Part shown: in pieces, positions 693 to 17,696 of the stretch
How the letters are laid out: each line of letters begins with the position of its first letter
How positions within the stretch are numbered: the first letter of the stretch is position 1
Virus record (IMG/VR): IMGVR_UViG_3300037423_000296
Span: 11,541-75,540 of that record
Length of the DNA: 64,000 nt
Direction: 5' to 3' (one strand)
Origin: a virus
Taxonomy: Duplodnaviria; Heunggongvirae; Uroviricota; Caudoviricetes
The notes under the pieces: model-generated
Database searches by the model: none
Told to the model about the DNA's origin: nothing
What the model saw: the letters and a program-made list of their open reading frames with translations, nothing else
Position numbers and translations under genes: made by a program

Positions 693-839
693 GTTACAAC
701 GACGACGAGACTTGGACTATCACCGAGGAAGGGCGGGTTCTCACCAAGAAAGCCCACGTTCTCTTGGATGAAGGATGGGAAATGGACGAGGTTGCAAACT
801 TCCTTGGCCTTCCAAGTAAGCTCCATCTAATGATTCTGA

Positions 840-3828: not shown

Positions 3829-4171
3829 CAATTGTGTATTTTGTGAAATTGTGAAAACTGGGGATGCTGAAGAGTTCTACCGGCATGACAAATTTGTCGT
3901 TTCGTTCGTCCCTCTTAACCCAGTAACGCCGGGTCACAGATTGTTTGTACCAGCAAGACATGGTGATGACATTGCCGATGACCCCACATGGGGAACTCTT
4001 GCAGTAAGAGCGGCAGCAGATTACGCTAATGCAAATGGACACGACTTCAACCTGATTACTTCTGGTGGCTCATTCGCTACCCAGACAGTGTTCCATACGC
4101 ACATTCACTATGTGCCCCGTCGAGAAAACGACGGGCTCTTCTTGCCATGGACGGAGCACTGGTGTCTATGA
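3821..4171 (+). CDS. HIT-family (histidine triad) nucleotide hydrolase
   Basis: HTHIHYVP histidine-triad motif, CVFC N-terminus. Confidence 0.85.
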   Translation: MTDNCVFCEIVKTGDAEEFYRHDKFVVSFVPLNPVTPGHRLFVPARHGDDIADDPTWGTLAVRAAADYANANGHDFNLITSGGSFATQTVFHTHIHYVPRRENDGLFLPWTEHWCL

Positions 4172-4410
4172 GACTAGTAATCGAATATCTTGATGGTACC
4201 AAGGATATTACTGGTGTTCTCGATAATGTAGAAACCTGGGAAGAATTTAACAAGATGTTCAGCGGTGGACCAGTTCACAGCATGACGGTACCTAAGTCGG
4301 ATGTCGGAATGATGTGGATTCCGGGTTCAGCTATCAAGAAAATTTACGAATACGTTCCCGTGCAAGAACCTATCAAGGTAAAGAAGGTTCCAAAATGGAG
4401 TTCGAAATGA
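4147..4410 (+). CDS. hypothetical protein
   Basis: ORF track. Confidence 0.45.
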   Translation: MDGALVSMRLVIEYLDGTKDITGVLDNVETWEEFNKMFSGGPVHSMTVPKSDVGMMWIPGSAIKKIYEYVPVQEPIKVKKVPKWSSK

Positions 4411-4562
4411 ACGATATCGACAAAAGAATCGAGAGGGCAGGAGAATATCAAGACACTCGCGGCAAATGTGTAATTTGCGGCGGCTGGTTTCAGGTCTGTC
4501 CTCACAGTATGACTCAGTGTAATCTTGCGATAGAGTACTATAGAATGAGGAGGTGTACATGA
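4407..4562 (+). CDS. small zinc-ribbon protein
   Basis: CVICGG...CPHSMTQC; ATGA overlap with upstream gene. Confidence 0.35.
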   Translation: MNDIDKRIERAGEYQDTRGKCVICGGWFQVCPHSMTQCNLAIEYYRMRRCT

Positions 4563-4888
4563 ACATCGTAAAACCAACTTTGCCAGATGGATGGACATTC
4601 TCCGTTTACTTTGACGATACCCTTGGAACTTCAGTAATCCAATGCTCAGGTCCAGGGTATAACTGGTCAGCACAGGTTGTTAAAAGCGCCGACCCAAATG
4701 CTGTCGAGCAGAATGTTAATAGCATTCTCGCGGATTACGCAGATAGAGCGGCGGCTGCCGAAAAGGTTAGAGCAGACTGGTCAAAGAAGCAGCTAGCAGA
4801 AGCACAAGACAGGATTGCTGCAAAGGCTCTGTCCGATGAAATCAAGCGGGCTCTTCCAGGCACTCCACGACAGATTCAGGGAAGATAA
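4553..4888 (+). CDS. hypothetical protein
   Basis: ORF track. Confidence 0.45.
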   Translation: MYMNIVKPTLPDGWTFSVYFDDTLGTSVIQCSGPGYNWSAQVVKSADPNAVEQNVNSILADYADRAAAAEKVRADWSKKQLAEAQDRIAAKALSDEIKRALPGTPRQIQGR

Positions 4889-4890
4889 TC

Positions 4891-5085
4891 ATGATGGAAG
4901 CATACGCAGCAGTTCACGGAGTGGATGAAGATGATAAGTTTGTCATTACAATTCATGAAAGGGATACTGATACTCTACAAGTGAAGTTCCGAATTAACAA
5001 TTGCACTAAGTTCACCGTCAAGATTATGCAGTTCGTTGAAGAGGAAGCTTCAAAAAGGAATTACAACGTAGTGGAGTGGAGATGA
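4891..5085 (+). CDS. hypothetical protein
   Basis: ORF track. Confidence 0.4.
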   Translation: MMEAYAAVHGVDEDDKFVITIHERDTDTLQVKFRINNCTKFTVKIMQFVEEEASKRNYNVVEWR

Positions 5086-5282
5086 CCGTACAAAAGGGAC
5101 CGGCTCTATGCAATGAATACCTCATCCTAGATGAGGGAACAACTCTAGCCGTATGCTACACAGAGCTTCCTTGCTCAAAGGAGCATGCAACGGAGCGAGA
5201 AATCGCGGCTTGGCGTGAGCGTGTAGAATCACGTATTGCAGAACTAGAAGCAGAGTATTGGAGATTGAAGGATTCAGAATGA
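5076..5282 (+). CDS. hypothetical protein
   Basis: ORF track. Confidence 0.4.
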   Translation: MEMTVQKGPALCNEYLILDEGTTLAVCYTELPCSKEHATEREIAAWRERVESRIAELEAEYWRLKDSE

Positions 5283-5476
5283 AAGATTTCGCCGGAAAGG
5301 AATTTGAGGTCGGCCAAACGGTAGCCTTGTGTCTTCCCTACTACAAACATCTCGTAAAAGGCCGGGTTGAGAAGATTGGTAACAAGATGGTCTCCTGTTC
5401 ATACAAAGGCCCATGGGGAGAAGACACCACAGCAAGGTATCCCAATCAGGTGATTATCATGGACGACAATGACTGA
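5258..5476 (+). CDS. hypothetical protein
   Basis: ORF track. Confidence 0.4.
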   Translation: MEIEGFRMKDFAGKEFEVGQTVALCLPYYKHLVKGRVEKIGNKMVSCSYKGPWGEDTTARYPNQVIIMDDND

Positions 5477-5660
5477 CCTAGACAAGCTAAAGAGTCTTCT
5501 CGATGAATGGGAAGTCCCATACGAAGAAGAGGATAACGCCATCACGCTCGAAGCCAATCAGTGGGATGACGATGCAAAGGTAACCGGCTATAGCGGCTTT
5601 GTAACACATGTTACTTTTGATGAAGAAGGCAAATTTCGCCGGATTGGTATTTGGGAATGA
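5469..5660 (+). CDS. hypothetical protein
   Basis: ORF track. Confidence 0.4.
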   Translation: MTDLDKLKSLLDEWEVPYEEEDNAITLEANQWDDDAKVTGYSGFVTHVTFDEEGKFRRIGIWE

Positions 5661-5817
5661 CAGAAACAGAACTAGATGAACTAAAGAACAAATGGTTCCA
5701 TCTCGGATGGGAGGCGGCTCTACGAGAGGTCGTCCTTTGCGAAGAATCTACAGATTACGGCGGTGTAGAATTCGCACGGGATTGGTTGAAGAGTCATGCC
5801 AAGGAGGTAGGTAAGTA

Positions 5818-6045
5818 ATGACAGATATCGGTCCCAAGACATATGTACTCAAGGGAGGGGCTCATGACGGATTAATTCTAAGGTCAATAAGCCCTATTAA
5901 GTCGATTGCTGTCGATGACAACGCATATGCAGATATGGGCGATGTCGATGAGAACGGATTCGTAGTACTAGAGAATGCAGTCGTCCTTGGATTGTCAAAA
6001 CTCGGCAAAGACCCTCTTGGTGGAGATGGCAAGAAGCTCTTCTGA
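5818..6045 (+). CDS. hypothetical protein
   Basis: ORF track. Confidence 0.4.
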   Translation: MTDIGPKTYVLKGGAHDGLILRSISPIKSIAVDDNAYADMGDVDENGFVVLENAVVLGLSKLGKDPLGGDGKKLF

Positions 6046-6126
6046 TGCGGCGCGAATCCTAGTCAACTAGAATTTCTATTCCCCAAATGTCCAAATTTGT
6101 GTTAGATGTATGATATGGGGTTCCTA

Positions 6127-6147
6127 AATCGAAAATGCTTTCGATTA
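6127..6147. terminator. hairpin aatcgaaaATGCtttcgatt (first of two at convergent junction)
   Basis: inverted repeat read in sequence. Confidence 0.45.
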
Positions 6148-6155
6148 GTGCGCAC

Positions 6156-6192
6156 AGAAAGGCATATAGGAATTGACCCTATATGCCTTTCT
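6156..6192. terminator. bidirectional intrinsic terminator, 14-15 bp perfect stem (agaaaggcatatagg / cctatatgcctttct)
   Basis: perfect inverted repeat between convergent gene blocks. Confidence 0.7.
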
Positions 6193-6295
6193 CCGCAATT
6201 CGCCGGATTACCCTATGACCATTCCAATGAGAACAACAATTCCCATTAGAACGAATGCCAACATAACCGCATAAACCAATAGGGTAATCACTACG

Positions 6296-6547
6296 TCACG
6301 CAATTGCCTTAGCCCAATACAGGACACCGTTGCATTCTTGCTCGAATGGCAAGGGTGAATTGCGCAAGGCAGAATAGATAGGCGCGTATATCTCATCCGC
6401 ACCCTCGCCTATCTCGTCATAGGCCTTATCCCAATTGCTTTCTACCTTGAGCAATAGTTCGGCTATGCATTCGTATGGGTTATCCCTTTTGATGATGGTA
6501 AAAGGCTCATTCCCTACAGCCTGCCATCCTGCCGCGTATCCGCTCAT
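6296..6547 (-). CDS. hypothetical protein
   Basis: ORF track. Confidence 0.4.
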   Translation of the reverse strand: MSGYAAGWQAVGNEPFTIIKRDNPYECIAELLLKVESNWDKAYDEIGEGADEIYAPIYSALRNSPLPFEQECNGVLYWAKAIA

Positions 6548-6651
6548 ATCCCTATCCCTACGGTCACAGCCCTACCCATGCGGGTAGGGCTTTAGCTGTG
6601 TGCCTAAGCCTGTCTAGCTAGGCAGTGTGCCTATGCCTAAAGGCACGGGCT

Positions 6652-6924
6652 CTATGCTGGGATAGGCCTGTAGATATCCACCCTCTCACCCTTGCCTACA
6701 GACACAGGGAAAGGCTGATTGAACGAACCGAAATAGGTCTCTACTTTCTCCCCCGACACGCTAGCTACGCGGGTATAGGTGGCAATGTCGATTCCCCGTA
6801 CGGGCACTAGTACACGCAAGTAGTCACCCTCTCGGATGCTACGCACGGTCCTGTCAGTGAGCCTGTCTACCCTGAGAGTCTGCATATTCGGGAGGGTAAT
6901 CGTCGCCTTAATTGCCTTTGCCAT
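6652..6924 (-). CDS. hypothetical protein (start moved to MAKAIKAT)
   Basis: ORF track, internal ATG chosen. Confidence 0.4.
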   Translation of the reverse strand: MAKAIKATITLPNMQTLRVDRLTDRTVRSIREGDYLRVLVPVRGIDIATYTRVASVSGEKVETYFGSFNQPFPVSVGKGERVDIYRPIPA

Positions 6925-7104
6925 AGTGCTAAATGCCTTTCTAGTGGTTTTTGGTGGGTAATTGGCATTAATTGGGCCAATATCCCTTGTTTTTCGCCAA
7001 AATCGGCGCTTTTTGCGGTGAAAACAGGAACTTGTTCCTGTTTTATTACCCATAGTAACAATGGCAGAATATTGACGTTAGTTAACATTCTGCTAGGTAA
7101 AGCA

Positions 7105-7485
7105 TTAGGCAGGCTCGACTACTGCCAAAGCCAACGGTTGCGTGTCGTCGTCGGTAATGTGCAGCTTGATAACCGCATCCGGATAGTGCTCACGCGGATA
7201 CCTGAAAAGCAGTTCCGATTCGTCTGGGCTTTCGATGGGGTCGGAGTACCAAAGCCACATCTCCGAATCCTCGCCCACATTCGGAGTCAACTTCGAATCC
7301 GGCTCACGGTTGACGTAGTCGAAATCTTGCGTCAGCCAATGTCCCGACACGTACCTATCCACCAAAGCATCTTTGGCAGCTTCAAGGGTGGGGAATGTTT
7401 CTAAGTATTCCCATGGGTAGGACATGGCGTAGTTAGTGCCTCCGTACCATTCGACCCAGACCCGCGATTTTTCGTCAGTGCTCAT
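7105..7485 (-). CDS. hypothetical protein
   Basis: ORF track. Confidence 0.5.
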   Translation of the reverse strand: MSTDEKSRVWVEWYGGTNYAMSYPWEYLETFPTLEAAKDALVDRYVSGHWLTQDFDYVNREPDSKLTPNVGEDSEMWLWYSDPIESPDESELLFRYPREHYPDAVIKLHITDDDTQPLALAVVEPA

Positions 7486-7580
7486 CCTGCCTAGACCTTT
7501 CGTGATTGTCCCTAGATTCGATTCTGAGAGACTTTGGCACAGTGAGGGTAGGTCACCCCACCCTCACCCGCCATGATGCC

Positions 7581-7790
7581 TCAGACTCGCTTGTACGCCG
7601 TCCGTGGATTCGGTAGCGGCTGACTGCCTTCCGGCCACGTGTAAATGTGGTACTGGCCTGCCGGATATTTGTCTTTGCGCAGACCAAAGCGAATGACGTT
7701 ATCGACACTCGCGTAATGCTCGAAAGACTGGTCATCCGTCCCGAGCTTTTCTCGTCCGCTCTCAGTGAGTGCGACGACTAGATAGCGCAT
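7581..7790 (-). CDS. hypothetical protein
   Basis: ORF track. Confidence 0.45.
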   Translation of the reverse strand: MRYLVVALTESGREKLGTDDQSFEHYASVDNVIRFGLRKDKYPAGQYHIYTWPEGSQPLPNPRTAYKRV

Positions 7791-7793
7791 GTC

Positions 7794-8126
7794 TCAATCC
7801 CTTTCCGCATGGTCGTATTCGAACGGGCATCGTGCGGACGGGTAAAGGTCTGGGAATGACTTGCCACACTCTCCGCAAGTCACCACATCGGAGCGGGTAG
7901 GGATTCCCTCGCCTTCCCATGTCTCTACCCATTCGCTTTGGTCACCCTCACTGAAAACAAGGGTGACGCTAAAGCGGTCCTCTCCGAAGTAATCCGGATT
8001 CATTCGGGATTTCAACTCATCCCGAATTGCCACGTAGGCCGATTCCCTTCCACCATCACGGGTAACCCCGGTAACCAGCGCGTGCCAGTTACCGAAGTTG
8101 TCAGCCCATGTCTGCACGCTAGCCAT
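7794..8126 (-). CDS. hypothetical protein (Cys-rich C-terminus)
   Basis: ORF track. Confidence 0.5.
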   Translation of the reverse strand: MASVQTWADNFGNWHALVTGVTRDGGRESAYVAIRDELKSRMNPDYFGEDRFSVTLVFSEGDQSEWVETWEGEGIPTRSDVVTCGECGKSFPDLYPSARCPFEYDHAERD

Positions 8127-8373
8127 TGGTCAATTTCTCCAATCGGTATTCGGTGTCAGTGTCAAGGAAGAAATCCTCACCCTTGACGATGATGTAAACG
8201 CTCGCGGAATTGCCGTAGGCCATGGCGTAAACCCGTCGCCAAATACCCGCGTATTTCAGCATGTAGCGGGTAGGAATCTTCCCTCCGTACCCGCTCACTG
8301 TCTGCCCGCTACGCGGAACATCGGTCACCCTCGCGTCAGTCACAAGCTGACTGTCTGTGCGCTGCACTGTCAT
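8119..8373 (-). CDS. hypothetical protein
   Basis: ORF track. Confidence 0.45.
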   Translation of the reverse strand: MTVQRTDSQLVTDARVTDVPRSGQTVSGYGGKIPTRYMLKYAGIWRRVYAMAYGNSASVYIIVKGEDFFLDTDTEYRLEKLTNG

Positions 8374-8428
8374 GTCTCATCCCTTCCAAGCCTGTAAGGC
8401 ATGGGAAAGCGGTTGCTAAGGCTCTAAC

Positions 8429-8462
8429 GGGTCCGACCCTAGGGAAGGCCTAGGGTCGGACC
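8429..8462. repeat. perfect 14-bp inverted repeat ggtccgaccctagg/cctagggtcggacc (hairpin/operator)
   Basis: read in sequence; intergenic. Confidence 0.5.
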
Positions 8463-8539
8463 TTGAAATCGTCTCTGTGAGCCCTACAGGCTCACTGCCG
8501 TAGGCACAGGCTTACAGGCCTGCCTAGCGGACACAGGCT

Positions 8540-8931
8540 CTACGCGCCTGCCGGACCCCATGACGGAGACTGGTCTACGGTGCCTCCGTCGTCACCCTCA
8601 CCCTCCCAATCGGCGTATTGGTCCTCAAGCTGCCGGTAGCGACGGATGAGGTCCGATTCCGCGTGATAGCGGGTGATGTGGATAAACCCTTGCGAGTCAG
8701 TCATCACGAGAAAGTAACCGACTGCCTCACGCAATTGCTCGTCAGTCATGCCGTAAGCGCTGATGACATCAGCGAATGAGTCTTTGATTCCTCCCGGCCA
8801 TCCGAAGACTTCCGACTCACTGTTGCTAATGCGCGCGAAATGACCGGTAGGGCTTTCAACGTCTCCGTCCGATTCGTTCGCCCACCCTCCGGTAATCATG
8901 GCGTCGAATAGGGCTTCAAGCGGAGTACGCA
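8540..8931 (-). CDS. hypothetical protein (start at MRTPLEALF)
   Basis: ORF track trimmed to internal ATG adjacent to upstream stop. Confidence 0.45.
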
Positions 8932-8945
8932 TGATGTGCTGCCTT

Positions 8946-9347
8946 TCAGTCGTCGTAACGTGCCCAGTACGGGTCACTGGTTGGAAGGGATGCCGCGAGA
9001 TTGCACATCCCTTGATAGCGAGAGGTAGTGGGCGAGTAGGACACGTCAGGGATAACCCATCCGTGAGTTTCCTTTGGTCCACCCTCGCTAGTGGGTACCC
9101 ACCATGCAATAGGCGTGTCATAGGACCACACAACGTATTGCGCTCCGGAGTGAATGAAACGGTCCTGCCATTCGGCAGGCAGTTGCGTGTCTGTCGGCAG
9201 GCTGAGGCTCGCACCCTCGCGGATGTTCTCTCCCCTGTGCGAGAGGGTGGCAGTGCGGAAATTCCGCATCATGTTCACCTCTCGTGCTACCTGCCTACGG
9301 GTGACCTTGCGAGTCATGGCAATTTCCTTTCTTGGCTTTGCCTTCAT
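8946..9347 (-). CDS. hypothetical protein
   Basis: ORF track. Confidence 0.4.
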   Translation of the reverse strand: MKAKPRKEIAMTRKVTRRQVAREVNMMRNFRTATLSHRGENIREGASLSLPTDTQLPAEWQDRFIHSGAQYVVWSYDTPIAWWVPTSEGGPKETHGWVIPDVSYSPTTSRYQGMCNLAASLPTSDPYWARYDD

Positions 9348-9416
9348 TGGTCGCTAGTGAGCACTAGCTTTCGCGTCACCCGCGATTTTTCGCACGGGTG
9401 ACACAAGAGTCATTGC

Positions 9417-9758
9417 TCACTCTGGGCTGTAACCGTCCGCATGTTCCTGCTCCGTGATTTCGTACAGCCTGCCGCTCGAATGGCGCTGTCTCGCAGTAGG
9501 TGGCTTAGGCGGGTTAGTGAACAACTCCGATTCACTCGCCCACCATCCGCACCTACGCTGCAAAGCTTCAAGCGCGCTTGCCTTAGATGCGACTCGCACA
9601 TCACTGCCCGTGGAAAACACGTAGAGCGGATTCCGGTCATCGTCAATCAGCCGGATTTCCCATCCGGCATCGATGACTGTCACGTATCGACGGGTGAAGC
9701 CTGCCTGTATCGACACGCGGAATTCAATCCGGTTGTTAATGGGCTCGAATGTCGCCAT
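9417..9758 (-). CDS. hypothetical protein
   Basis: ORF track. Confidence 0.45.
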   Translation of the reverse strand: MATFEPINNRIEFRVSIQAGFTRRYVTVIDAGWEIRLIDDDRNPLYVFSTGSDVRVASKASALEALQRRCGWWASESELFTNPPKPPTARQRHSSGRLYEITEQEHADGYSPE

Positions 9759-10018
9759 TCCTTACCACCTACTCACTCTCACTAGTGATTCCGTGAGCAA
9801 CGCATTTAGCTTGCGTCCGCTCTCCAATAAATCCCGTGCGAATGCTGCCAATCGCTTGGGGTCGGTTGTGTAAATCCCGAATTCGCTACCGATAAAAGTA
9901 GCGACTCTGATTGTGTCTGTGCGTCGATTCATTCCCTCACCCCTTTGTAAGTTCCCAGCATGAGCAACGCCATGGCAGCGCTAGGCCTGCCGTAAGGCCT
10001 AGCGTCACCAAAGGTCTC

Positions 10019-10321
10019 TCAGTCTGCCGCGTACCAACGTTCCGTCATCGGGTCCAAGACAGGCATGAGAGTGACTGTGTAGTCGTTAATGACTTCATCC
10101 GGCTCATTGCCTAGCACGAAGTAAACGAATCCTTCGTGGTCATCCTTACTGACGTAAAGGTGAGCCGAATCAAGCGCCATGATTGCAGCGATTGCCTCAC
10201 CCTCCTTTGTGACTGGGATGGACTCCTCACCATCCCAGACCGAATCAAGTTCCCACCCTGCCGCACGTAGTGCGCGGATGGTTTGGCGAATACCTGCTTT
10301 GTCGCTAGTCGGCGCTGCCAT
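10019..10321 (-). CDS. hypothetical protein (start at MAAPTSDK)
   Basis: ORF track trimmed. Confidence 0.4.
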   Translation of the reverse strand: MAAPTSDKAGIRQTIRALRAAGWELDSVWDGEESIPVTKEGEAIAAIMALDSAHLYVSKDDHEGFVYFVLGNEPDEVINDYTVTLMPVLDPMTERWYAAD

Positions 10322-10335
10322 GTCAGTAGTTCCAA

Positions 10336-10641
10336 TCAGTGAGTGACGATGAATCGGTAACCAGTGTGAATCACGCGGTAAGCCTTGAGCATGCCGAACC
10401 GACGAAATCGGTAGGCGGTTGACCATGAAAGGTGAGGCAGGGTGAATCTCACGCTATGACGTGTCCACCCTGCCGCATTGTCGTAAGGCCTATCCCATGC
10501 GACGAATGCACGCGGGTAGAACGTGCCTGCCTTTGCATTCATATCTAGGCCGAACGTCACCCGTCCGTACCCGCGAACTTTCGTCTCACAATCCACGATT
10601 AGCGCTTGTGAGAGTTTGGTGGGTTTGTTTCGACGTTGCAT
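10336..10641 (-). CDS. hypothetical protein (101 aa, C-terminal part of the longer R-rich ORF)
   Basis: ATG directly after stop of upstream gene. Confidence 0.4.
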   Translation of the reverse strand: MQRRNKPTKLSQALIVDCETKVRGYGRVTFGLDMNAKAGTFYPRAFVAWDRPYDNAAGWTRHSVRFTLPHLSWSTAYRFRRFGMLKAYRVIHTGYRFIVTH

Positions 10642-10642
10642 G

Positions 10643-11155
10643 TCAGTAACCCGCCATTTCCGCGTATTGGTCATAGACCGTGTTTCTCGGAGTCTCGCAT
10701 TCGTCAGTGCACATATAGATTTCTCTGTGCCTGTATCCCTCTTCCGTGGATTCCGACCATTCCGCTTTGTAGTCGAATTGCGAATACGGGTCACTCTGTA
10801 CCCGCATCGTTCCGTCAATCGCACAGGGTGAGGACAACCAATGCACGTGGAATGACCAAAATCCGAATGCGTCGATTTCTCCGGATTCGGCATCGATGAA
10901 ACGCTCATCGTCGCGACCCCAATAAATCCCGTGGTCACCGTGCCCACCATCACAGTCACGGGATGACTCTTCCCAGTGAATGTGAACGTTGGGGAATTGC
11001 TCGCGGTCAATCTGCAAAGCCTCTGCGTGCCGAATGTCCTCCAATGACTCAGGACCAATCGGGTGACGCCATGTCGGAATTTCGCACTCGCCATCCCAGT
11101 AGGCGAGTTCGTTCCCTGTGCTGGTCGGAGTGCAGTTTTCAAGCGTGTAACTCAT
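10643..11155 (-). CDS. hypothetical protein (171 aa, Cys/His-rich)
   Basis: ORF track trimmed to MSYTLENC; preceded by repeated upstream element A. Confidence 0.5.
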   Translation of the reverse strand: MSYTLENCTPTSTGNELAYWDGECEIPTWRHPIGPESLEDIRHAEALQIDREQFPNVHIHWEESSRDCDGGHGDHGIYWGRDDERFIDAESGEIDAFGFWSFHVHWLSSPCAIDGTMRVQSDPYSQFDYKAEWSESTEEGYRHREIYMCTDECETPRNTVYDQYAEMAGY

Positions 11156-11161
11156 GTCGGC

Positions 11162-11258
11162 ACCTTTCCTGTGTTGGCTGTATGCCGTTGTGCGTGTATC
11201 TGACACGCCATGGCTGAGACAGGGATTGCATGGTCCTGTCTCGCCAAAGTCAGTCAGC
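11162..11258 (-). promoter_or_regulatory. repeated upstream element copy A (cctttcctgtgttggctg ... hairpin gagacagg-N11-cctgtctc ... gtcagtcag)
   Basis: three-copy element with covarying stems. Confidence 0.55.
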
Positions 11259-11432
11259 CTGCCTTCACTCCGAGTCCGGGCGTCCACATACCCTCGCCCA
11301 CCTTGAATTTGAAGCCTGACGAATCGACACAGAGTCGAAATCGCCTGTCAAAGTTCCGAGCATTCGTCAGCGCTTCGAGCAATTGCGCTTGCTCGCGTTC
11401 TGACAATTCGATGATGTTCACTGCACAACCTT

Positions 11433-11738
11433 TCAGATTGTCGGAATGTCGTTAGGGTGCTGCCGTACCCATTCGGCGCAATAGGCAGTGTCCTCCATGC
11501 AATCGACCCATACCGCGTATACCGACCATGCGGATACATGCGGGTAGGCAGCCGCGATAGCGGCTAGGAACAAGGCCTGTGAAGCCTTGTATGTGTCTGT
11601 CCAGCATCCCGAAACGTCATTGCTGGGATGAGCCGAAACGATGTGGTGATGCCGCCTAGCCTCCTCCGCAATCTGCCGCGCCAAATCCTGCCGCGTGACT
11701 CCGAATGACTCCTCTGTCACTGTCTCGAAAACTGCCAT
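11433..11738 (-). CDS. hypothetical protein
   Basis: ORF track trimmed to MAVFETV. Confidence 0.5.
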   Translation of the reverse strand: MAVFETVTEESFGVTRQDLARQIAEEARRHHHIVSAHPSNDVSGCWTDTYKASQALFLAAIAAAYPHVSAWSVYAVWVDCMEDTAYCAEWVRQHPNDIPTI

Positions 11739-11745
11739 GGTGGCT

Positions 11746-11824
11746 TTCCCTTTCCTGTGTTGGCTGAGTTGCCATGGTTGCGGCAGGGAATGCATGTTCC
11801 TGCCGCACCAAAGTCAGTCAGTCA
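11746..11824 (-). promoter_or_regulatory. repeated upstream element copy B (hairpin gcggcagg-N11-cctgccgc)
   Basis: see copy A. Confidence 0.55.
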
Positions 11825-12066
11825 AGGACTCCCCTGCTCCGAAGTTCCGCCACTACGTCATCACGCCGTGCGCGTTGACGCGAGGTGTGCGACTCACCGC
11901 GAGCGCATGACATCTTGTATTCGACAAACTCTCGGACTAATTCCGGAGTCGTCATGACTTGGGGGTCCGCTCCAAGAATGTCTCCGAGCAATGTCCGCAT
12001 CATTCGCATGGTCTCAATTCCTAACGAATCGGAGGGATGGGCTTTCAGTGAGTAGAGCAACCGCAT
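11818..12066 (-). CDS. hypothetical protein
   Basis: ORF track. Confidence 0.4.
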   Translation of the reverse strand: MRLLYSLKAHPSDSLGIETMRMMRTLLGDILGADPQVMTTPELVREFVEYKMSCARGESHTSRQRARRDDVVAELRSRGVLD

Positions 12067-12232
12067 TCGAATAGGGAACGTTTATCCCTACCCGTTCCCA
12101 ATGCGTACCGTTCACGCTGTATGCCGAATAGGTCGCATAAGCGTTGAAACGGTCTGTGAGCTTCAAGCCTGACAAGGCGAGTTGAGTGTCAGTCATGACA
12201 ACCGGTCTCCTACGTAATCGCCCTCGCCCCAA
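12014..12232 (-). CDS. hypothetical protein
   Basis: ORF track; overlaps neighbour. Confidence 0.3.
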   Translation of the reverse strand: MGRGRLRRRPVVMTDTQLALSGLKLTDRFNAYATYSAYSVNGTHWERVGINVPYSNAVALLTESPSLRFVRN

Positions 12233-12399
12233 ACGACACTGTTGTAACCGGGGCCGTATTCCACGTTCACCCGAAGCGCATTCACCCGCACTCCGTAACC
12301 CTCCAAAAGCAGGGTTAGCGCGAGGGAAGTAGCCTCCTCAGCATTCGGCGCTGTAATGCCTCCGCTGAAACCGTCAATCGTAATGTGCATTTCCTGCAT
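12193..12399 (-). CDS. hypothetical protein
   Basis: ORF track trimmed to MQEMHITIDG. Confidence 0.45.
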   Translation of the reverse strand: MQEMHITIDGFSGGITAPNAEEATSLALTLLLEGYGVRVNALRVNVEYGPGYNSVVWGEGDYVGDRLS

Positions 12400-12478
12400 T
12401 CCTTTCCTGTGTTGGCTGAAATGCCATTCGGGCTGACAGCGCATGTCTGTCAGCCCTAGATGACGTGTCAGTCAGTGA
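12398..12478 (-). promoter_or_regulatory. repeated upstream element copy C (hairpin ggctgacag-N7-ctgtcagcc)
   Basis: see copy A. Confidence 0.55.
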
Positions 12479-12743
12479 CCCGCTCCGCATAGGCCAAATC
12501 CTCGCGGTACTGCAAAGCCCATTGGTCACCCGCTGCCTTAACGAACGGATGGAAGTAGGTAGACACGTTGTCATCCGCTGCCACACATCCAACGTTCCAA
12601 CCAACCGTGACCCCATCCGCTTTGAAGCTGAAAGGCTCAGCCACTACGCGGAACAACGTTCCACCTTCGTTCACTACGTCACCCGGTTTCAATTCCGAGT
12701 AGTGCACTCTGTGTGTCGTCATTGCATGTCCTCTCACAGGCAA
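12468..12743 (-). CDS. hypothetical protein
   Basis: ORF track. Confidence 0.5.
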   Translation of the reverse strand: MPVRGHAMTTHRVHYSELKPGDVVNEGGTLFRVVAEPFSFKADGVTVGWNVGCVAADDNVSTYFHPFVKAAGDQWALQYREDLAYAERVTD

Positions 12744-13559
12744 GGCCTACAGACTGTCTGTCTGCCTTGTGAGTGCTAGGCATGCGTCGGAGTCCGCTTG
12801 TTTCGAGTGACTGTCTCCGAGTAGTCACTCACCCTTACCTGTGCCCACATCATCGCGTCGGTGTCTTGCATCCGCGCTAGCGCCATGTCCTAAGGGAACC
12901 TGCCGTGAATAGCATTCCGACCTTGCACGTCAGCCGGAGTATTCCAACGGGCCTTGAGATTCAGTTGTCCTGCTTACCCTGTGCGGGTTGTCCTGCTCTC
13001 CGCGCTTCCCTCGCGTGCCCGATGGGCTGACTTGCGAGTGCCTGTGCTCCGAGCGGAGCGGCTGGCGGGGTGTTTCGGTGTTGCAATGAGGACACTACGT
13101 AGGCCGTAGAGACGCACAAAGTCGTCAAGGCCCATATCCCATCATCGTTATCATTCCGTTATCAAAAACTACGCTCTGTGCATGAAATTAGCGCTCGCTA
13201 TCTACGCAGAGTGAGATTGAGCGTAGACAGTGTGTCAGTCTGTGAGACGGATTGTCTCAGCATTCGAGAAATAACCGACAATGATGTTCAATAAGGCCGA
13301 TTCCGAGCCTGTGCCTATGCAGTGTTTATCTATATGCGCTCCGCACAGGCCTGCCGTGAGCCTGTGAGCCTGCCTAGTGACTGTGCGCCTGTCTCAGCCG
13401 CAGACACTGCCGGTAGGCCTGTCGGCATGCGCTCCGAGACTGCCTGTCAGGTGACTTCGGAGGGTGCCTGTCTGTTGCTACAGGCAACATAGTTACTCAG
13501 AGTGAAAATCGCCTGTAATCGACGTTTAGCCTTCGGTAGGTATGTGACCCTAGCTAGGC

Positions 13560-13990
13560 ACTCTCAATCGCTTAGCAAGCGCTTTCCGAGATAACGCTTT
13601 CCGTAAACAACCTTTCCGATTGAAGCGGTTGTTTGAATCTTGAGCGCAGCACATTCGAACAAATGTTCGTTCGAACAGATTTTCGAAAATTCTCAATTAG
13701 TAAAGGTCCGTTCGTTTAGTAAGTCTGAGGTTACTTAGTAAAGGTTCGTTATTAATCCCGGCGGAATTAGTAAAGAAGCCTTCTTATCTATTCGAACAAG
13801 CGTTCGATTTGGTAAGCGCTTTCCCGGTAAACGCTTTCCGACAACGATTTTCATTCCCAACTGTGGGGGCCGGGGGCCATTTACGAATGGGGCTTACGAA
13901 AGCGGGAGTTTTACGACCGGGACTTTTAAAAGCGGGAGTTACGAATTACGAATTGATTTACAAAAGAGGAAAACCCCGGCTCTTTGCCGG
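13560..13990. repeat. repeat-dense non-coding hub: CGCTTTCCG x4, TTAGTAAAGGTyCGTT x2-3, CGAACA-NN-YGTTCG palindromes x2, TTACGAA x4, AGCGGGAGTT x2
   Basis: direct reading; no ORF >=60 aa from 12780 to 13809. Confidence 0.7.
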
Positions 13991-13998
13991 GGTCTCTC

Positions 13999-14190
13999 TT
14001 AGTATCTGGGAGTCACTGATTTGATTGCACCATCTCCAGCGCCGTGATTTCCGTCAGTCAGTTGCTCAAGAGTTTGCAGCAACGTTTCACGAACGTCATC
14101 CTTGACTGCCTGAGCAGTGTTGTCGATGCCGTAACAAGAAGCCCATTCGTCCTTGTCAACCTCTACAGTGACACTGAAGATTACCTTCAT
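13999..14190 (-). CDS. hypothetical protein
   Basis: ORF track. Confidence 0.45.
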   Translation of the reverse strand: MKVIFSVTVEVDKDEWASCYGIDNTAQAVKDDVRETLLQTLEQLTDGNHGAGDGAIKSVTPRY

Positions 14191-14194
14191 TTGT

Positions 14195-14334
14195 CAGTCC
14201 TCCGAGTTACGAGTCTGGACACGAACCTCAAAGCCGCCGACATAAGTGCCAGTGTTCAGGCCTTGAGTCACCTTCCGCGCTCCGAGACGAGTGTACGTCT
14301 TACGAGCCTGCGGACGACGAACGCGCTTACCCAT
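14195..14334 (-). CDS. small basic protein (46 aa)
   Basis: manual ORF MGKRVRRPQARK.. Confidence 0.3.
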
Positions 14335-14399
14335 AGCTTACTCCTTAATACGAACTTCCAGTTGAAAATCCGGGGTTTTCCCGGCTGCTTGTGAGTACT

Positions 14400-14428
14400 A
14401 CTCTAGTGCGTGAGAGTCAGCCTGTCAA
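14400..14428 (-). promoter_or_regulatory. promoter TTGACA-N17-TAGAGT
   Basis: consensus match on minus strand. Confidence 0.55.
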
Positions 14429-14634
14429 GTCCTGATTAGATGACTTCCAGTCTTGTCTAGGTGCTTCTGGTTGATGGTCCATACGAACATGTCATAGTCA
14501 ACGTTGACAGTCACGGGCTCTTGCCTGTCCCTGAGATATACGCGGGTTGTCCCATGAGGGTCTAGCTCGTCTTCCTCAGCAAATACAATGTCGTCTGTCT
14601 CAATGAATTGAGACTTGGTTACTTGTACCTTCAT
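14425..14634 (-). CDS. hypothetical protein
   Basis: ORF track. Confidence 0.45.
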   Translation of the reverse strand: MKVQVTKSQFIETDDIVFAEEDELDPHGTTRVYLRDRQEPVTVNVDYDMFVWTINQKHLDKTGSHLIRT

Positions 14635-14887
14635 CGGCGGTCCTTGTGCTGAGCCGTGCTAATCCAGTTGAGAGAATGACGCCTGATGCTATTACCCAAT
14701 CCCTCTTCTCGGAGGGTACTCATGAGTGGCAAGAGTCCCAAGATTGAGAGTGTGGACGACCCAACGCCTCCACGCAGGAGAACACCTAGGCCTTCAGCCT
14801 CCTCGCGGGAAAGCTCCAGTGTGTAACCGCCCTTTTCGACAACGACTACCTCAGTAACGTCTTCTCGCTTTGTCAGTGTTGCCATAT
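14631..14887 (-). CDS. hypothetical protein (start at MATLTKRE)
   Basis: ORF track; longer ATG at 14909 lies inside iteron array. Confidence 0.45.
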
Positions 14888-14891
14888 TTGT

Positions 14892-14966
14892 GACCGAAAA
14901 TCCTTTCAATTATGAATGCCGACCGAAAATCTGACCGAAAATCGACCGAAATCTTGACCGAAAATC
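14892..14966. repeat. iteron-like array: 5 direct copies of GACCGAAA(A)TC, last four at about 11-12 bp spacing
   Basis: copies at 14892, 14921, 14933, 14944, 14956. Confidence 0.8.
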
Positions 14967-14984
14967 CATTTGAAATCAGATTTC

Positions 14985-15344
14985 TCACTCAATTTCAAAT
15001 TTGAGACGCTTGAGAATTTCTGAATTCCAACCCGCCGTGTATTCGTGCGTGGTGACATCGTGAGTGTTGTTATTGAAAAGGACGTGCCCCCAACCATGAA
15101 TGAATTCATCCCATCGGACCATGTACCCACATTCATCACACCAAGGCTTACGACCGTTATCTAGGTACTTTTGGTATGCCTGGTCAACATAAGGCTTACG
15201 TTCGTCCAGCAAGAGCCGGTGAATCGTCTGCCGAGTCTCCCACACCTTTTCGTCAGCGTAGAGATTGCCAGTGTGTGGACTGGGTAGATTCTCTACCTCG
15301 TTGATGAGCTTGTTTAGCAGGTTGATTGCTTCCCAGTCCTTCAC
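14985..15344 (-). CDS. hypothetical protein
   Basis: ORF track. Confidence 0.5.
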   Translation of the reverse strand: MKDWEAINLLNKLINEVENLPSPHTGNLYADEKVWETRQTIHRLLLDERKPYVDQAYQKYLDNGRKPWCDECGYMVRWDEFIHGWGHVLFNNNTHDVTTHEYTAGWNSEILKRLKFEIE

Positions 15345-15502
15345 TTGGCTTCCACCATCTCAATCTGGAAATTGTCAATGGTGAACAACTGAATAACCGG
15401 GTTGTTTCCGTCGAAGGTAATCTCCACACGCTCACCAGACGGCAAGTCAACAATTACCTTGTCGTCCTCATCGTTGATACAGCGCCGGTCGATGTTCCAC
15501 AT

Positions 15503-15700
15503 TTAGACTCCTACGAGTTGACGAGCTTCACGCTCTAGCTTCTCTACCTTTAGGGACAATGCTAGGTTCTCCTGCCGTAGCCTGTCAAGCTCAGCGAGGA
15601 CGGCAATGTGGTGCGAATCGTGCCGGGTTGTGTTGCGAACATCAACGCCACATTCGGCGCACATCTTTGCCTCTCCTACGCCAATGTAGGTAGGCTTCAT
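15503..15700 (-). CDS. hypothetical protein (CxxC, possible Zn-binding)
   Basis: ORF track. Confidence 0.4.
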   Translation of the reverse strand: MKPTYIGVGEAKMCAECGVDVRNTTRHDSHHIAVLAELDRLRQENLALSLKVEKLEREARQLVGV

Positions 15701-17629: not shown

Positions 17630-17696
17630 CGTCTTGCCCTTTCGGTCGATTTGCTTGGTGTAAGCTTACCAGCCTAGAGAGTGTGGGTCAAGCCCT

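What the first reader, a model, noticed from the sequence alone, without database searches (positions are those of the whole stretch)
6200..12780. GC-rich gene block (about 57-63% in spot samples vs about 40-50% elsewhere) bounded by a bidirectional terminator and a repeat hub
I counted 60-nt samples by hand: 63% at about 8581, 57% at about 10801, versus 48% at the window start and 40% at about 38221. The block holds about 20 hypothetical minus-strand genes. It carries its own intergenic repeat vocabulary (ggcctgt / acaggc words and a three-copy upstream element). That pattern suggests a horizontally acquired or differently evolving module.
Basis: seen in the sequence. Interest (0 to 1): 0.6.

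Follow-up and report, generated by a model that had tools for sequence, protein, structure and literature searches.

The report
GC-richer gene block beside phage genome end
The flagged block is the last stretch of small unknown-function genes before the predicted physical end of a new Streptomyces-phage-like genome; it really is somewhat GC-richer and uses its own regulatory words, but this is a family trait of such phages rather than foreign DNA.

Summary
The GC rise is real but modest. The block is 54.3% GC, against 47.4% to its left and 50.5% for the rest. Best change points are ~7100 and ~13080, and 25-32 kb is equally GC-rich. The 18 small minus-strand ORFans, the perfect 15-bp hairpin (6156-6192), the exact three-copy upstream 18-mer and the GCCTGT/ACAGGC arrays are all confirmed.

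The window is an uncultivated relative of the tRNA-rich Streptomyces phages (Stanwilliamsviridae, BK-like layout). The hairpin sits beside a ~49-nt site that marks the physical right genome end in all six isolates checked. It predicts a cut at window 6113|6112. The repeat-start signature of those isolates (GGGTAATA plus an immediate hairpin) occurs once in the window, at 7051-7022. That predicts a ~0.93-kb direct terminal repeat (7043-6113).

The GC-rich block proper (~7.1-13.1 kb) is the end-proximal accessory-gene module between a 1.28-kb repeat-laden regulatory gap and that repeat. Its proteins are Lys-poor and Arg-rich (GC2 0.456 vs 0.389). Its homologues are ordinary actinophage genes, as are those of control genes. 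Relatives also show higher GC next to the genome end.

Verdict: a differently evolving module of a known kind, not a foreign island.

The parts
7105..12722 (-). GC-rich block proper. It holds 16 small ORFan genes: 7105-7485, 7581-7790, 7794-8126, 8119-8373, 8540-8977 (more likely starting at 8932), 8946-9347, 9417-9758, 9762-9932, 10019-10321, 10336-10596, 10643-11155, 11254-11421, 11433-11738, 11818-12066, 12193-12399 and 12468-12722.
   Evidence: Self-trained codon-model gene call and translations. JGI gene calls on strain contigs largely agree. GC is 0.55 for 7046-12832. GC2 and amino-acid shift. No Pfam or PADLOC hit; PHROGs hits are to unknown-function families only.
8119..9347 (-). Three genes (8946-9347, 8540-8977, 8119-8373) homologous to BillNye gp3, gp5 and gp4 and to the Muntaha equivalents. 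In those phages the genes lie inside the terminal repeat.
   Evidence: tblastn gives 48%, 42% and 61% identity, with two places per record. This trio is the most divergent part between strains: 82.8% in L008, where 8119-8373 is replaced.
6113..7043 (-). Predicted direct terminal repeat, ~931 bp (~905 bp if the start is after the hairpin). GC is 0.492. It carries genes 6652-6924 and 6296-6547, plus a 31-aa ORF at 6208-6303.
   Evidence: It is bounded by the start signature and the end site conserved in six isolates. It behaves as a separate mosaic unit in strain L003: 3 differences in 7600-6887, then 93 in 6886-6040. The GC change point is at ~7100. It was not seen in two copies, so this is inferred.
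7022..7051 (-). Repeat-start signature: GGGTAATA (7051-7044) followed at once by a perfect 10-bp hairpin, AAACAGGAAC-aa-GTTCCTGTTT (7043-7022), then TTTC.
   Evidence: It is the only one of the 11 G[GT]GTAAT[AG] words on both strands of the window that has an immediate strong hairpin. The same word plus hairpin sits at the repeat start of all six isolates. The local alignment to the BillNye junction ties for top among 1374 windows.
6104..6155 (-). Conserved genome-terminus (repeat-end) site: GTGCGCACTAAT, the palindrome AATCGAAAGCATTTTCGATT, then CCCATAT|CATACATCT. The predicted cut is between 6113 and 6112.
   Evidence: The region aligns with the repeat ends of BillNye and Muntaha (E = 3e-4 and 6e-7; alignment). 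All six isolate genomes end at ...TAT|CATACATC within this site. The site occurs in 72 IMG/VR contigs, 71 of them spanning 48-50 nt. It is perfectly conserved between strains over 6106-6192.
6156..6192 (.).
   Evidence: A hairpin of different sequence holds the same position in BillNye and Muntaha.
12723..13998 (-). 1276-nt non-coding regulatory gap (the 'repeat hub'). In the direction of transcription it contains: a terminator (13996-13970); TTCGTAA words; an AT-rich stretch (~13960-13540) with CGCTTTCCG, TTAGTAAAG and TTCGAACA repeats; a GCCTGT/ACAGGC array (13307-13485); an AT-ish part (13290-13141); and a variable GC-rich part (13140-12780).
   Evidence: The design matches the second gene-poor gap of Muntaha and BillNye, 4-5 kb upstream of their repeat starts. 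Strain L010 diverges after 13147. The GC-rich part is not significantly structured as RNA (z = -1.5). There is no Rfam hit.
11163..11257 (-). Cassette copy 1, upstream of gene 10643-11155: hairpin with a CATGC loop, then ATGGC, then the 18-mer CAGCCAACACAGGAAAGG (11180-11163, which includes the GAAAGG Shine-Dalgarno), then ATG.
11749..11821 (-). Cassette copy 2, upstream of gene 11433-11738.
12401..12456 (-). Cassette copy 3, upstream of gene 12193-12399 (hairpin 12430-12456).
8486..8538 (-). Array of four GCCTGT words (coding-strand sense) in the spacer upstream of gene 8119-8373, followed by a perfect 14-bp hairpin at 8430-8462.

Best explanation
What the window is. It comes from an uncultivated, tRNA-rich actinophage related to the Streptomyces phages of the family Stanwilliamsviridae, with a BK-cluster-like layout.

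What the block is. The flagged block is the genome-end-proximal part of the long arm of small genes that runs on the window's minus strand. It has three pieces, in the direction of transcription:
1. A 1.28-kb non-coding hub (13998-12723) with arrays of short repeats. I infer that these are binding sites for phage-specific regulators and hold the promoter(s) of the module.
2. Sixteen small ORFan genes (12722-7105). They are moderately GC-rich and use their own regulatory grammar: GCCTGT/ACAGGC words, and three hairpin-plus-conserved-ribosome-binding-site cassettes.
3. A short direct terminal repeat of about 0.93 kb (7043-6113) carrying two more small genes. It opens with GGGTAATA plus a hairpin and closes at a strongly conserved terminus site (cut 6113|6112) just after the 15-bp hairpin.

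How it likely works. Shown by comparison: the repeat-end site is where related genomes physically end. Inferred: during packaging, concatemers are cut at the start and end sites and the repeat is duplicated. Inferred: the hairpin stops transcription coming from both convergent arms. Inferred: the 16-18 genes are fast-evolving accessory genes (host takeover or anti-defence type) that are exchanged between strains in mosaic fashion.

Why it is GC-richer. The shift is partly at third codon positions and unusually strongly at second positions (Lys-poor, Arg-rich proteins). Higher GC next to the genome end recurs across the family. The cause is not settled. Candidates are a gene pool shared with higher-GC actinophages, expression-linked selection, and recombination-linked GC bias.
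For: Identity of the genome.
- 32 tRNAs and a tmRNA.
- rIIA is ~36% identical to Stanwilliamsviridae phages.
- ThyX is 73% identical to BillNye. The window is collinear with BillNye's right arm, and the trio maps into the BillNye and Muntaha terminal repeats.
- SprT-like protease is 58-68% identical, at a matching distance from the genome end.

Terminus.
- The only significant non-coding similarity to BillNye and Muntaha is at their repeat ends.
- The invariant CCATATCATACATCT is shared.
- Six isolate genomes (BillNye, Muntaha, Mildred21, Gilson, Comrade, Blueeyedbeauty) end exactly at TAT|CATACATC.
- 72 viral contigs carry the site with fixed spacing.

Repeat start.
- The word plus hairpin is found in 6 of 6 isolates.
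- It is unique in the window at 7051-7022.
- The predicted 931 bp compares with 734-788 bp (Gilson, Comrade, Blueeyedbeauty), 1874 bp (Muntaha) and 2262 bp (BillNye).
- The GC change point is at ~7100 and the strain mosaic break is at 6886.

Composition.
-.
- Family trait: Mildred21's repeat is 0.552 against 0.483 for its unique DNA, the top window of that genome.
- The repeat side is GC-richer than the unique side in 37 of 43 loci, by +3.2 points on average, p = 6.5e-7.
- Homologues of Mildred21's repeat genes lie in the window's other GC-rich stretch, 29-31.5 kb.

Own vocabulary. Gap design shared with BK phages.
Against: - The repeat was never seen in two copies. The window holds one copy and no reads are available, so both repeat boundaries are predictions.
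- The start word is short. It is not enriched upstream of the end site across the 72 mostly distant loci.
- In BillNye and Muntaha the trio genes are inside the repeat, whereas here they would lie 1-2 kb outside it.
- Mildred21 shows that a 10.8-kb GC-rich repeat with its own vocabulary exists in this family. A weak start-like site (GTAAGG|GTGAG plus hairpin) exists at 12833|12832.
- No promoter could be identified in the block or the gap.
- No function could be assigned to any gene.
- Codon data give no specific support for early-gene adaptation to host tRNAs.
Confidence: 0.62

Rival explanations
1. The whole block is a long direct terminal repeat (~6.7-7.8 kb, from the long gap down to 6113). 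This would resemble the ~11-kb repeats of cluster BE1 phages, and the GC island would equal the repeat.
For: - Mildred21's 10,818-bp repeat is the single GC island of its genome. It holds ~21 small one-strand genes with long spacers and a private promoter/box vocabulary.
- The block's trio genes are inside the repeat in BillNye and Muntaha.
- A GTAAGG|GTGAG word followed by an 8-bp hairpin lies at 12838-12790 in the long gap.
- BE1 repeats of ~11 kb are documented (PMC5764925).
Against: - The exact start signature (GGGTAATA plus a perfect 10-bp hairpin) is at 7051-7022, not in the gap. The site at 12838 has a mismatch in the GTAAT core and a weak fold (z = -0.8).
- The window's layout and homologies are BK-like, and BK repeats are 0.7-2.3 kb.
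- Homologues of Mildred21's repeat genes lie at 29-31.5 kb in the window, not in the block.
- The GC change point at ~7100 and the mosaic break at 6886 single out the last ~0.9 kb as a separate unit.
Confidence: 0.2
2. The block is a foreign island recently acquired by horizontal transfer from a different, higher-GC lineage.
For: - The block has atypical composition, especially GC2 and the Lys/Arg ratio. Such a pattern would be expected from a partly ameliorated import from a higher-GC gene pool.
- It has its own intergenic vocabulary.
- Some genes have homologues in phages of Mycobacterium, Microbacterium and Rhodococcus, which are high-GC hosts.
- Strain-level segment replacement occurs inside the block.
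Against: - Control genes outside the block hit the same actinophage pool.
- The block is in conserved synteny with relatives, and the trio is shared with BillNye and Muntaha at the equivalent place.
- There are no mobility genes and no flanking direct repeats or tRNA target.
- Raised GC next to the terminus recurs across the family.
- 25-32 kb has the same GC.
Confidence: 0.1
3. The block is an early (host-takeover) gene set whose higher GC reflects selection for host-like codons, because it is translated before the phage's own ~32 tRNAs accumulate. This concerns the cause of the GC shift and is compatible with the anatomy given above.
For: - The phage is ~20 GC points below typical actinobacterial hosts and carries many tRNAs.
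- Third-position GC is raised (0.62, against 0.56 in the right arm and 0.49 in the left arm).
- In Mildred21 the shift is almost purely at third positions (0.72 vs 0.50).
- In Mildred21 each repeat gene has a host-type TTG-N17-TAGACT promoter.
Against: - In the window, A-ending codons read by the phage's U34 tRNAs are not avoided in the block (0.187, vs 0.171 in the right arm).
- The most distinctive shift is at second codon positions, which codon selection does not explain.
- The block lacks the host-type promoter words found elsewhere on the same strand.
- The timing of expression is unknown.
Confidence: 0.25
4. There is nothing specific here. The GC rise is ordinary regional fluctuation in a mosaic phage genome, and the repeats are chance.
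For: - The step is only 4-7 points.
- Another region (25-32 kb) reaches the same GC.
- Hand-sampled 60-mers exaggerate the contrast.
Against: - The change-point gain is 37.7, against at most 16.6 in shuffles.
- GC2 differs with p = 1e-5 and is the extreme run in the window.
- The exact 18-mer occurs three times against 0.06 expected.
- The motif ACAGGCNCACAG occurs 7 times against 1.1 expected, all within the block.
- The k-mer vocabularies are disjoint.
- Conserved terminus sites lie at its edge.
Confidence: 0.03

Closest known systems
Short direct terminal repeats and end-proximal small-gene region of BK-cluster Streptomyces phages (Loccivirinae: BillNye, Muntaha, Gilson, Comrade, Blueeyedbeauty)
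   Same: - The gene-arm orientation is the same: small hypothetical genes run into the repeat and converge on a ThyX-containing unit (methylase and tRNA-Thr as well in the BK phages).
- The repeat-end site is the same (…GCGCACTA…TAT|CATACATC), with a hairpin just before it.
- The repeat-start signature is the same (G[GT]GTAAT[AG] plus a hairpin).
- A ~1.3-kb gene-poor repeat-rich gap lies 4-6 kb upstream of the repeat.
- The trio of genes is shared with BillNye and Muntaha.
   Different: - Protein identities are only 36-73%, and megablast finds no DNA similarity.
- The trio lies outside the predicted repeat here but inside it in BillNye and Muntaha.
- The block's other 13-15 genes have no homologues there.
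- BillNye's own repeat is not GC-rich (0.494).
- The repeated words in the gaps differ: CGGACAT in Muntaha, CGGAAAGCG/TTACTAA/ACAGGC here.
~11-kb direct terminal repeats of cluster BE1 Streptomyces phages (for example Mildred21; PMC5764925)
   Same: - A block of ~20 small one-strand genes of unknown function next to the genome end.
- About +6-7 GC points over the flanking DNA.
- A private intergenic regulatory vocabulary.
- The same conserved end site.
   Different: - There the whole block is demonstrably the repeat, with opposite gene orientation. Nearly every gene has a terminator, a CCGGACA box and a TTG-N17-TAGACT promoter cassette.
- Here no such promoters occur in the block, and the repeat is predicted to be only ~0.9 kb.
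- The GC shift there is almost purely at third codon positions (0.72 vs 0.50), while here second positions shift as much.
- Homologues of its genes lie elsewhere in the window, at 29-31.5 kb.
Terminal-repeat-encoded early modules of T5 (pre-early genes, first-step-transfer DNA) and SPO1 (host-takeover module)
   Same: The general idea is the same: many small genes of unknown function clustered at the redundant genome ends, next to a long non-coding repeat-rich region. The comparison was made by the BE1 authors and draws on my own knowledge of T5 and SPO1.
   Different: There is no sequence or structural homology, and the phage lineage and host are different. No array of strong host-type promoters was found. 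Early timing and host shut-off are untested. Most of the block is predicted to lie outside the repeat.

Membership tests
Direct terminal repeat of a Stanwilliamsviridae-type genome (applied to 6113-7043) | The same sequence is present at both physical ends of the linear genome. | not testable with these tools
   The window (and the collapsed metagenome assembly) holds one copy. No reads or virion DNA are available.
Direct terminal repeat of a Stanwilliamsviridae-type genome (applied to 6113-7043) | The repeat ends at the conserved site …GCGCACTA-N~30-TAT|CATACATC, where isolate genomes physically end. | tested here: met
   The site is at 6155-6104 and the cut is at 6113|6112. Six isolates end there. 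72 viral contigs carry the site.
Direct terminal repeat of a Stanwilliamsviridae-type genome (applied to 6113-7043) | The repeat starts at or just after G[GT]GTAAT[AG] followed by a hairpin. | tested here: met
   GGGTAATA plus a perfect 10-bp hairpin lies at 7051-7022 and is unique in the window. The signature is present in 6 of 6 isolates. The word alone is not enriched in 72 distant loci, so specificity is moderate.
Direct terminal repeat of a Stanwilliamsviridae-type genome (applied to 6113-7043) | About 2-fold read coverage, and read-start and read-end pile-ups at the boundaries. | not testable with these tools
   This is the criterion used for the isolates (PMC5764925). No reads are available here.
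Stanwilliamsviridae-like tRNA-rich actinophage (the genome the window comes from) | Dozens of tRNAs plus one tmRNA. rIIA/rIIB, Lsr2-like, SprT-like and ThyX genes in conserved order. | tested here: met
   32 tRNAs and a tmRNA. Synteny with BillNye and Mildred21.
Stanwilliamsviridae-like tRNA-rich actinophage (the genome the window comes from) | Formal family membership by shared gene content or genome-wide similarity. | tested here: inconclusive
   Only 64 kb was seen. About 20 of ~155 window proteins hit Mildred21 at E<1e-4. rIIA is 36% identical. No formal clustering was done.
Horizontally acquired genomic island | The genes have a taxonomic affinity distinct from the rest of the genome. | tested here: not met
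   The block and the control gene sets both hit actinophages.
Horizontally acquired genomic island | Mobility genes, or flanking direct repeats or a tRNA target. | tested here: not met
   No Pfam family in any of the 18 proteins. No flanking direct repeats. The nearest tRNA is at 18170.
Horizontally acquired genomic island | Atypical base composition. | tested here: met
   But 25-32 kb has equal GC, and the trait recurs in relatives.
T5 / SPO1-type terminal early (host-takeover) module | An array of strong host-RNA-polymerase promoters ahead of the small genes. | tested here: not met
   One sigma-70-like site in 5000-15000, outside the block, against 7.8 expected. No TTG[AT]C-N16-19-TANNNT on the coding strand of 6000-14100, and no TAGACT in 2833-15504.
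T5 / SPO1-type terminal early (host-takeover) module | Early expression and host shut-off functions. | not testable with these tools
   No expression data. No function could be inferred for any protein.

The most novel reading that the evidence does not exclude
A two-part cut-site signature marks the packaging ends of a very large and mostly uncultivated phage clade, which includes low-GC (~37-40%) environmental relatives. The start is G[GT]GTAAT[AG] plus a hairpin. The end is TATGGGCGCACTAT-N~28-GTAT|CATACATC. In this clade the DNA next to the redundant ends is systematically GC-enriched. One possible cause is GC-biased repair or gene conversion linked to the recombination that terminal repeats undergo every replication cycle, rather than gene origin or codon selection. 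If so, the flagged block would be one visible instance of a general, recombination-driven compositional gradient toward phage genome ends.
Probability: 0.2. Interest if true: 0.6.

Novelty: new member of a known kind. Interest (0 to 1): 0.33.

Why it matters
For this window, the result turns an unexplained 'GC island' into a concrete genome map. It gives the predicted physical end of the phage DNA, a short terminal repeat, an accessory-gene module and its regulatory hub.

More generally, the conserved end site is present in 72 public viral contigs. It could let physical genome ends and terminal repeats be predicted directly from metagenome-assembled contigs of this phage group, where they are normally invisible.

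The recurring GC rise next to the ends is a small observation that can be tested against hypotheses about how phage genome composition evolves.

The 16-18 ORFans are candidates for host-takeover or anti-defence functions, but nothing here shows that.

Tried and rejected
- Near and distant DNA searches of the block against GenBank phages. Megablast found nothing. The distant search found only one ~180-nt gene fragment.
- IMG/VR scans with two block proteins found no relatives.
- Exact-protein look-ups gave only short strain contigs and no long contig of the same strain, so assembly ends say nothing about the physical ends.
- Pfam, PHROGs, PADLOC and PDB sequence searches assigned no function.
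- My first working model was that the whole block is the terminal repeat. It rested on the striking Mildred21 parallel. I downgraded it after finding the start signature at 7051 and the location of the Mildred21 homologues.
- The idea that the block avoids A-ending codons served by phage tRNAs was not supported.
- An origin of replication in the long gap: Muntaha's equivalent gap has DnaA-box-like words, but the window shows no enrichment. I do not claim an origin.
- A structured RNA in 12723-13140: z = -1.5 and no Rfam hit.
- The Mildred21-type cassette (CCGGACA box plus TAGACT promoter) is absent from the block.
- A general family-wide repeat-start word was not enriched in the 72 loci.
- In the first BLAST of the repeat junctions I split the queries at the junction, so it could not detect the start-site similarity. 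I redid it with junction-spanning queries.

Full report
1. CHECK OF THE OBSERVATION

A computed profile shows a GC rise after ~6.2 kb and a fall after ~13.4 kb. GC is 0.543 for 6200-12780, 0.474 for 1-6200 and 0.505 for the rest of the window. The hand-sampled 60-mers are nearly right (63.3% at 8581, 55% at 10801, 48.3% at 1, 40% at 38221). But 60-nt samples have an sd of 6.5 points and overstate the contrast.

A two-change-point likelihood fit places the steps at ~7100 (support interval 6500-7560) and ~13080 (13020-13660). The gain is 37.7 log-likelihood units, against at most 16.6 in 100 block shuffles. The block contains the most GC-rich 6.6-kb window of the 64 kb (0.550). However, 25-32 kb reaches 0.542, so the block is not unique.

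A self-trained codon model minus-strand genes of at least 40 aa in the interval. Gene calls on metagenome contigs of the same phage largely agree.

The other details also hold:
- The hairpin at 6156-6192 is a perfect 15-bp stem, z = -7.2.
- The three-copy element is an exact 18-mer, CAGCCAACACAGGAAAGG. It sits 2-9 nt before three start codons and occurs nowhere else in the window.
- About half of all GCCTGT/ACAGGC words in the window lie in 6.2-13.5 kb.
- All seven matches to ACAGGCNCACAG lie in 6855-13392.
- 12723-13998 is the longest non-coding gap of the window.

2. WHAT GENOME THIS IS

The window has 32 tRNA genes and a tmRNA, all on the minus strand. Its rIIA-like protein is ~36% identical to those of the 125-135-kb tRNA-rich Streptomyces phages of the family Stanwilliamsviridae.

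Megablast finds nothing. Exact copies of block proteins occur only on short contigs from one series of JGI metagenomes. So this is an uncultivated, distant relative.

Local tblastn shows that the window's minus strand is collinear with BillNye's right arm:
- Window 39.5, 32.1, 31.7, 31.0, 30.6 and 24.1 kb map to increasing BillNye coordinates from 111.5 to 116.6 kb.
- ThyX (1075-1785, plus strand) is 73% identical to BillNye's ThyX. In both genomes it lies beyond a convergence point.
- Three consecutive block genes (8946-9347, 8540-8977, 8119-8373) match BillNye gp3, gp5 and gp4. Those genes are inside BillNye's and Muntaha's direct terminal repeats.

3. THE LOWER BOUNDARY IS THE CONSERVED GENOME END

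The only significant non-coding similarity between the window and BillNye or Muntaha is between window 6082-6173 and the distal ends of their terminal repeats. The alignment shows a GCGCACTA box, a small palindrome and an invariant CCATATCATACATCT.

The last bases of six isolate genomes fall at exactly the same place, …TAT|CATACATC…. The isolates are BillNye, Muntaha, Mildred21, Gilson, Comrade and Blueeyedbeauty, from five genera and two subfamilies. Their ends were defined experimentally from read pile-ups, as described for the BE1 phages in PMC5764925.

A pattern scan finds this site in 72 IMG/VR contigs. In 71 of them the site spans 48-50 nt, which excludes chance matches. Many are low-GC environmental contigs.

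In the window the homologous cut lies between 6113 and 6112, 43 nt after the hairpin. A hairpin of unrelated sequence occupies the same position in BillNye and Muntaha. Because the window reads straight through this point into the ThyX arm, the source assembly must have collapsed the repeat into one copy.

4. WHERE THE REPEAT STARTS

I first thought the whole block was the repeat, because Mildred21 offers a striking parallel:
- Its 10,818-bp repeat (verified identical at both ends) is the single GC island of that genome. GC is 0.552 against 0.483 for unique DNA, and the best other window is 0.507.
- It holds ~21 small one-strand genes.
- It has a private vocabulary of terminator, CCGGACA box and TTG-N17-TAGACT promoter cassettes.

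Three later results changed this view.
- Repeat length varies from 734 bp to 11.5 kb in the family, and the BK-like phages that the window resembles have 0.7-2.3 kb.
- Homologues of Mildred21's repeat genes (its gp3 and the Lsr2-like gene) lie at 29-31.5 kb in the window, inside the other GC-rich stretch, not in the block.
- All six isolates have G[GT]GTAAT[AG] followed directly by a hairpin at the repeat start. The genome begins right after the word in four of them and right after the hairpin in two.

The window has GGGTAATA at 7051-7044, followed at once by a perfect 10-bp hairpin at 7043-7022. Of the 11 such words on both strands of the window, it is the only one with a strong immediate hairpin. 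Further support:
- It lies in a spacer, on the correct strand, 931 nt before the end site.
- Its local alignment to BillNye's junction ties for top among 1374 windows.
- The GC change point falls at ~7100.
- Strain contig L003 has only 3 differences from the window between 7600 and 6887, then 93 between 6886 and 6040, while 6106-6192 is invariant.

I therefore predict a ~0.93-kb repeat, 7043-6113, with GC 0.492.

The caveats are real. The start word is short and is not enriched upstream of the end site in the 72 mostly distant loci. A weaker start-like site exists at 12833|12832 in the long gap. The trio genes would lie outside the repeat, unlike in BillNye and Muntaha. And no second copy or read data can be examined.

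5. THE BLOCK PROPER AND ITS UPSTREAM HUB

The GC-rich block (~7.1-13.1 kb) consists of 16 small genes between the repeat and the 1276-nt gap.

Five match PHROGs of unknown function. PDB sequence searches are empty. A confident model of the most conserved protein (pLDDT 88) gives only generic fold matches.

Composition:
- GC1 is unchanged (0.575 vs 0.564).
- GC3 is raised (0.619 vs 0.558), but no more than at 25-32 kb (0.641).
- GC2 is the extreme of the window (0.456 vs 0.389; Mann-Whitney p = 1e-5).
- Lysine is 2.8 vs 6.2%, asparagine 2.8 vs 4.2% and arginine 7.6 vs 5.4%.
- BillNye's five repeat genes show the same Lys-poor, Arg-rich pattern.

Regulation:
- The rest of the minus-strand arm is enriched in TANNNT-type words (TAGACT, TAGAAT, CTAGTCA). 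It has TTG-N17-TAGACT sites at 24306, 26297, 32531, 44651 and 54088.
- The block's intergenic DNA has none of these words, and there is no TAGACT between 2833 and 15504. Instead it has ACAGGC/GCCTGT, CACAGG, TAGGCA and CATGCA.
- Three genes are preceded by a cassette of hairpin (CATGC loop), ATGGC, and the 18-mer that ends in the GAAAGG Shine-Dalgarno. The space is too short for a promoter, so I read these as RNA hairpins (termination, processing or stability) plus a conserved translation-initiation region.

The long gap has a terminator, TTCGTAA words, nested arrays of CGCTTTCCG, TTCGAACA and TTAGTAAAG, six to eight GCCTGT/ACAGGC words at 24-53-nt spacing, and a strain-variable GC-rich part. 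Muntaha and BillNye have a gap of the same design 4-5 kb upstream of their repeats, with different repeated words. I infer a regulatory hub bound by phage-specific proteins.

An origin of replication is not supported, since DnaA-box-like words are not enriched. A structured RNA is not supported either.

6. WHY THE BLOCK IS GC-RICHER

The block's homologues are in phages of Streptomyces, Mycobacterium, Microbacterium, Rhodococcus and Arthrobacter. Those of 26 control genes from 14-22 kb are in the same kind of actinophage pool.

The trait recurs in the family. It is seen in Mildred21's repeat. Across the loci that carry the end site, the 3 kb on the repeat side are GC-richer than the 3 kb on the unique side in 37 of 43 cases. 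The mean difference is +3.2 points (Wilcoxon p = 6.5e-7), and the window shows +6.9.

Selection for host-like codons in early genes is plausible for Mildred21. It gets no specific support here. A-ending codons read by the phage's own tRNAs are not avoided, and the second-position shift is unexplained by codon selection.

The second-position excess fits a gene set drawn from, or exchanged with, a higher-GC actinophage gene pool and then partly ameliorated. A recombination-linked GC bias near the redundant ends is also possible. I could not discriminate between these.

7. COMPARISON, NOVELTY AND VERDICT

The closest known things are these:
- The end-proximal small-gene region plus short terminal repeat of BK-cluster Streptomyces phages. 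Architecture and cut-site signatures are the same.
- The GC-rich 11-kb repeats of BE1 phages. The kind of gene block is the same, but the boundaries and promoter grammar differ.
- By analogy only, the T5 and SPO1 terminal early modules.

The feature is a new member of a known kind, in a novel phage lineage.

The more interesting by-products are the conserved terminus signatures and the family-wide GC rise toward the genome end. I did not find either described in the papers I searched. That search covered only open-access literature.

Noticed in passing
window 18533-18586 (-): Rfam Pistol ribozyme match: 37.9 bits against a gathering score of 34.5. The conserved core (ACUCGUCU…GCGAGUAUAAAUA…UUAGGC…AGAGCG) is well matched. 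It lies in a 1.5-kb gene-poor stretch (17630-19158), next to an isolated tRNA-Asp (18170-18241).
   Followed up: partly
window 6104-6155 (-); loci L021-L092: The ~49-nt genome-end site (TATGGGCGCACTAT-N~28-GTAT|CATACATC) occurs in 72 IMG/VR contigs, 71 with a 48-50-nt span. Many are low-GC (~37-40%) environmental contigs up to 130 kb. It could serve to predict physical ends in metagenome-assembled phage genomes.
   Followed up: partly
window 25000-32000: A second stretch is as GC-rich as the block (0.542; GC3 0.64). It contains homologues of genes that lie inside Mildred21's terminal repeat: 29077-30075 (46% identical to Mildred21 gp3) and the Lsr2-like 30998-31522. Another Lsr2-like gene lies at 31733-31978.
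   Followed up: partly
window minus strand 24306, 26297, 32531, 44651, 54088: Promoter-like TTG-N17-TAGACT sites occur on the coding strand, for example TTGACAGGCCGACATTCTCAGACTAGACT. They match the promoter type that precedes nearly every gene of Mildred21's terminal repeat. The hexamer TAGACT is absent from 2833-15504.
   Followed up: partly
window 18170-62166 (-); tmRNA 54712-55109: 32 tRNA genes and a tmRNA, all on the minus strand and interspersed with small genes. ARAGORN predicts the tmRNA tag peptide as ATDNIDAEYEALCAEYDLASV, which looks unusual to me (judged from memory; I did not compare it with other tmRNA tags).
   Followed up: no
L014 (Mildred21) 900-10000: The spacers of Mildred21's terminal repeat are stereotyped cassettes: a GC-rich terminator hairpin, a GTCCGGGCCGGACA box, a TTG-N17-TAGACT promoter and a GAAAGG-type ribosome-binding site. 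The repeat holds 10 of the promoter-type matches per copy, against 13 in the 110 kb of unique DNA (on both strands). CCGGACA is likewise concentrated there (~15 per copy vs 4). The BE1 genome announcement I read does not mention this.
   Followed up: partly
window 8119-9420 vs L008 and L016; window 13147 vs L010; window 5657-6045 vs L003: Strain-level mosaicism in the metagenome. The trio region is only 82.8% identical in L008, and gene 8119-8373 is replaced by a 95-aa gene there. L010 diverges completely after 13147 in the long gap. L003 replaces the two plus-strand genes just beyond the terminus.
   Followed up: partly
window, whole; cluster at 13881-13952 (-): TTCGTAA is over-represented genome-wide (24 found against 5.9 expected), mostly on the coding strand. 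Four copies cluster right after the terminator at the top of the long gap. The same word opens Muntaha's equivalent gap.
   Followed up: no
window 11240-11252 and 11808-11821 (-): The stop codons of the ORFs called just upstream of cassette copies 1 and 2 (11254-11421 and 11818-12066) lie in CTGACTGAC(TGA) strings, which put TGA in two or three reading frames just before the hairpin.
   Followed up: no
window 17186-17629 (-); 44730-47559 (-); 1075-1785 (+): Recognisable genes outside the block: a SprT-like protease (58-68% identical to BK phages), rIIB- and rIIA-like proteins, and ThyX. They are useful anchors for synteny.
   Followed up: partly
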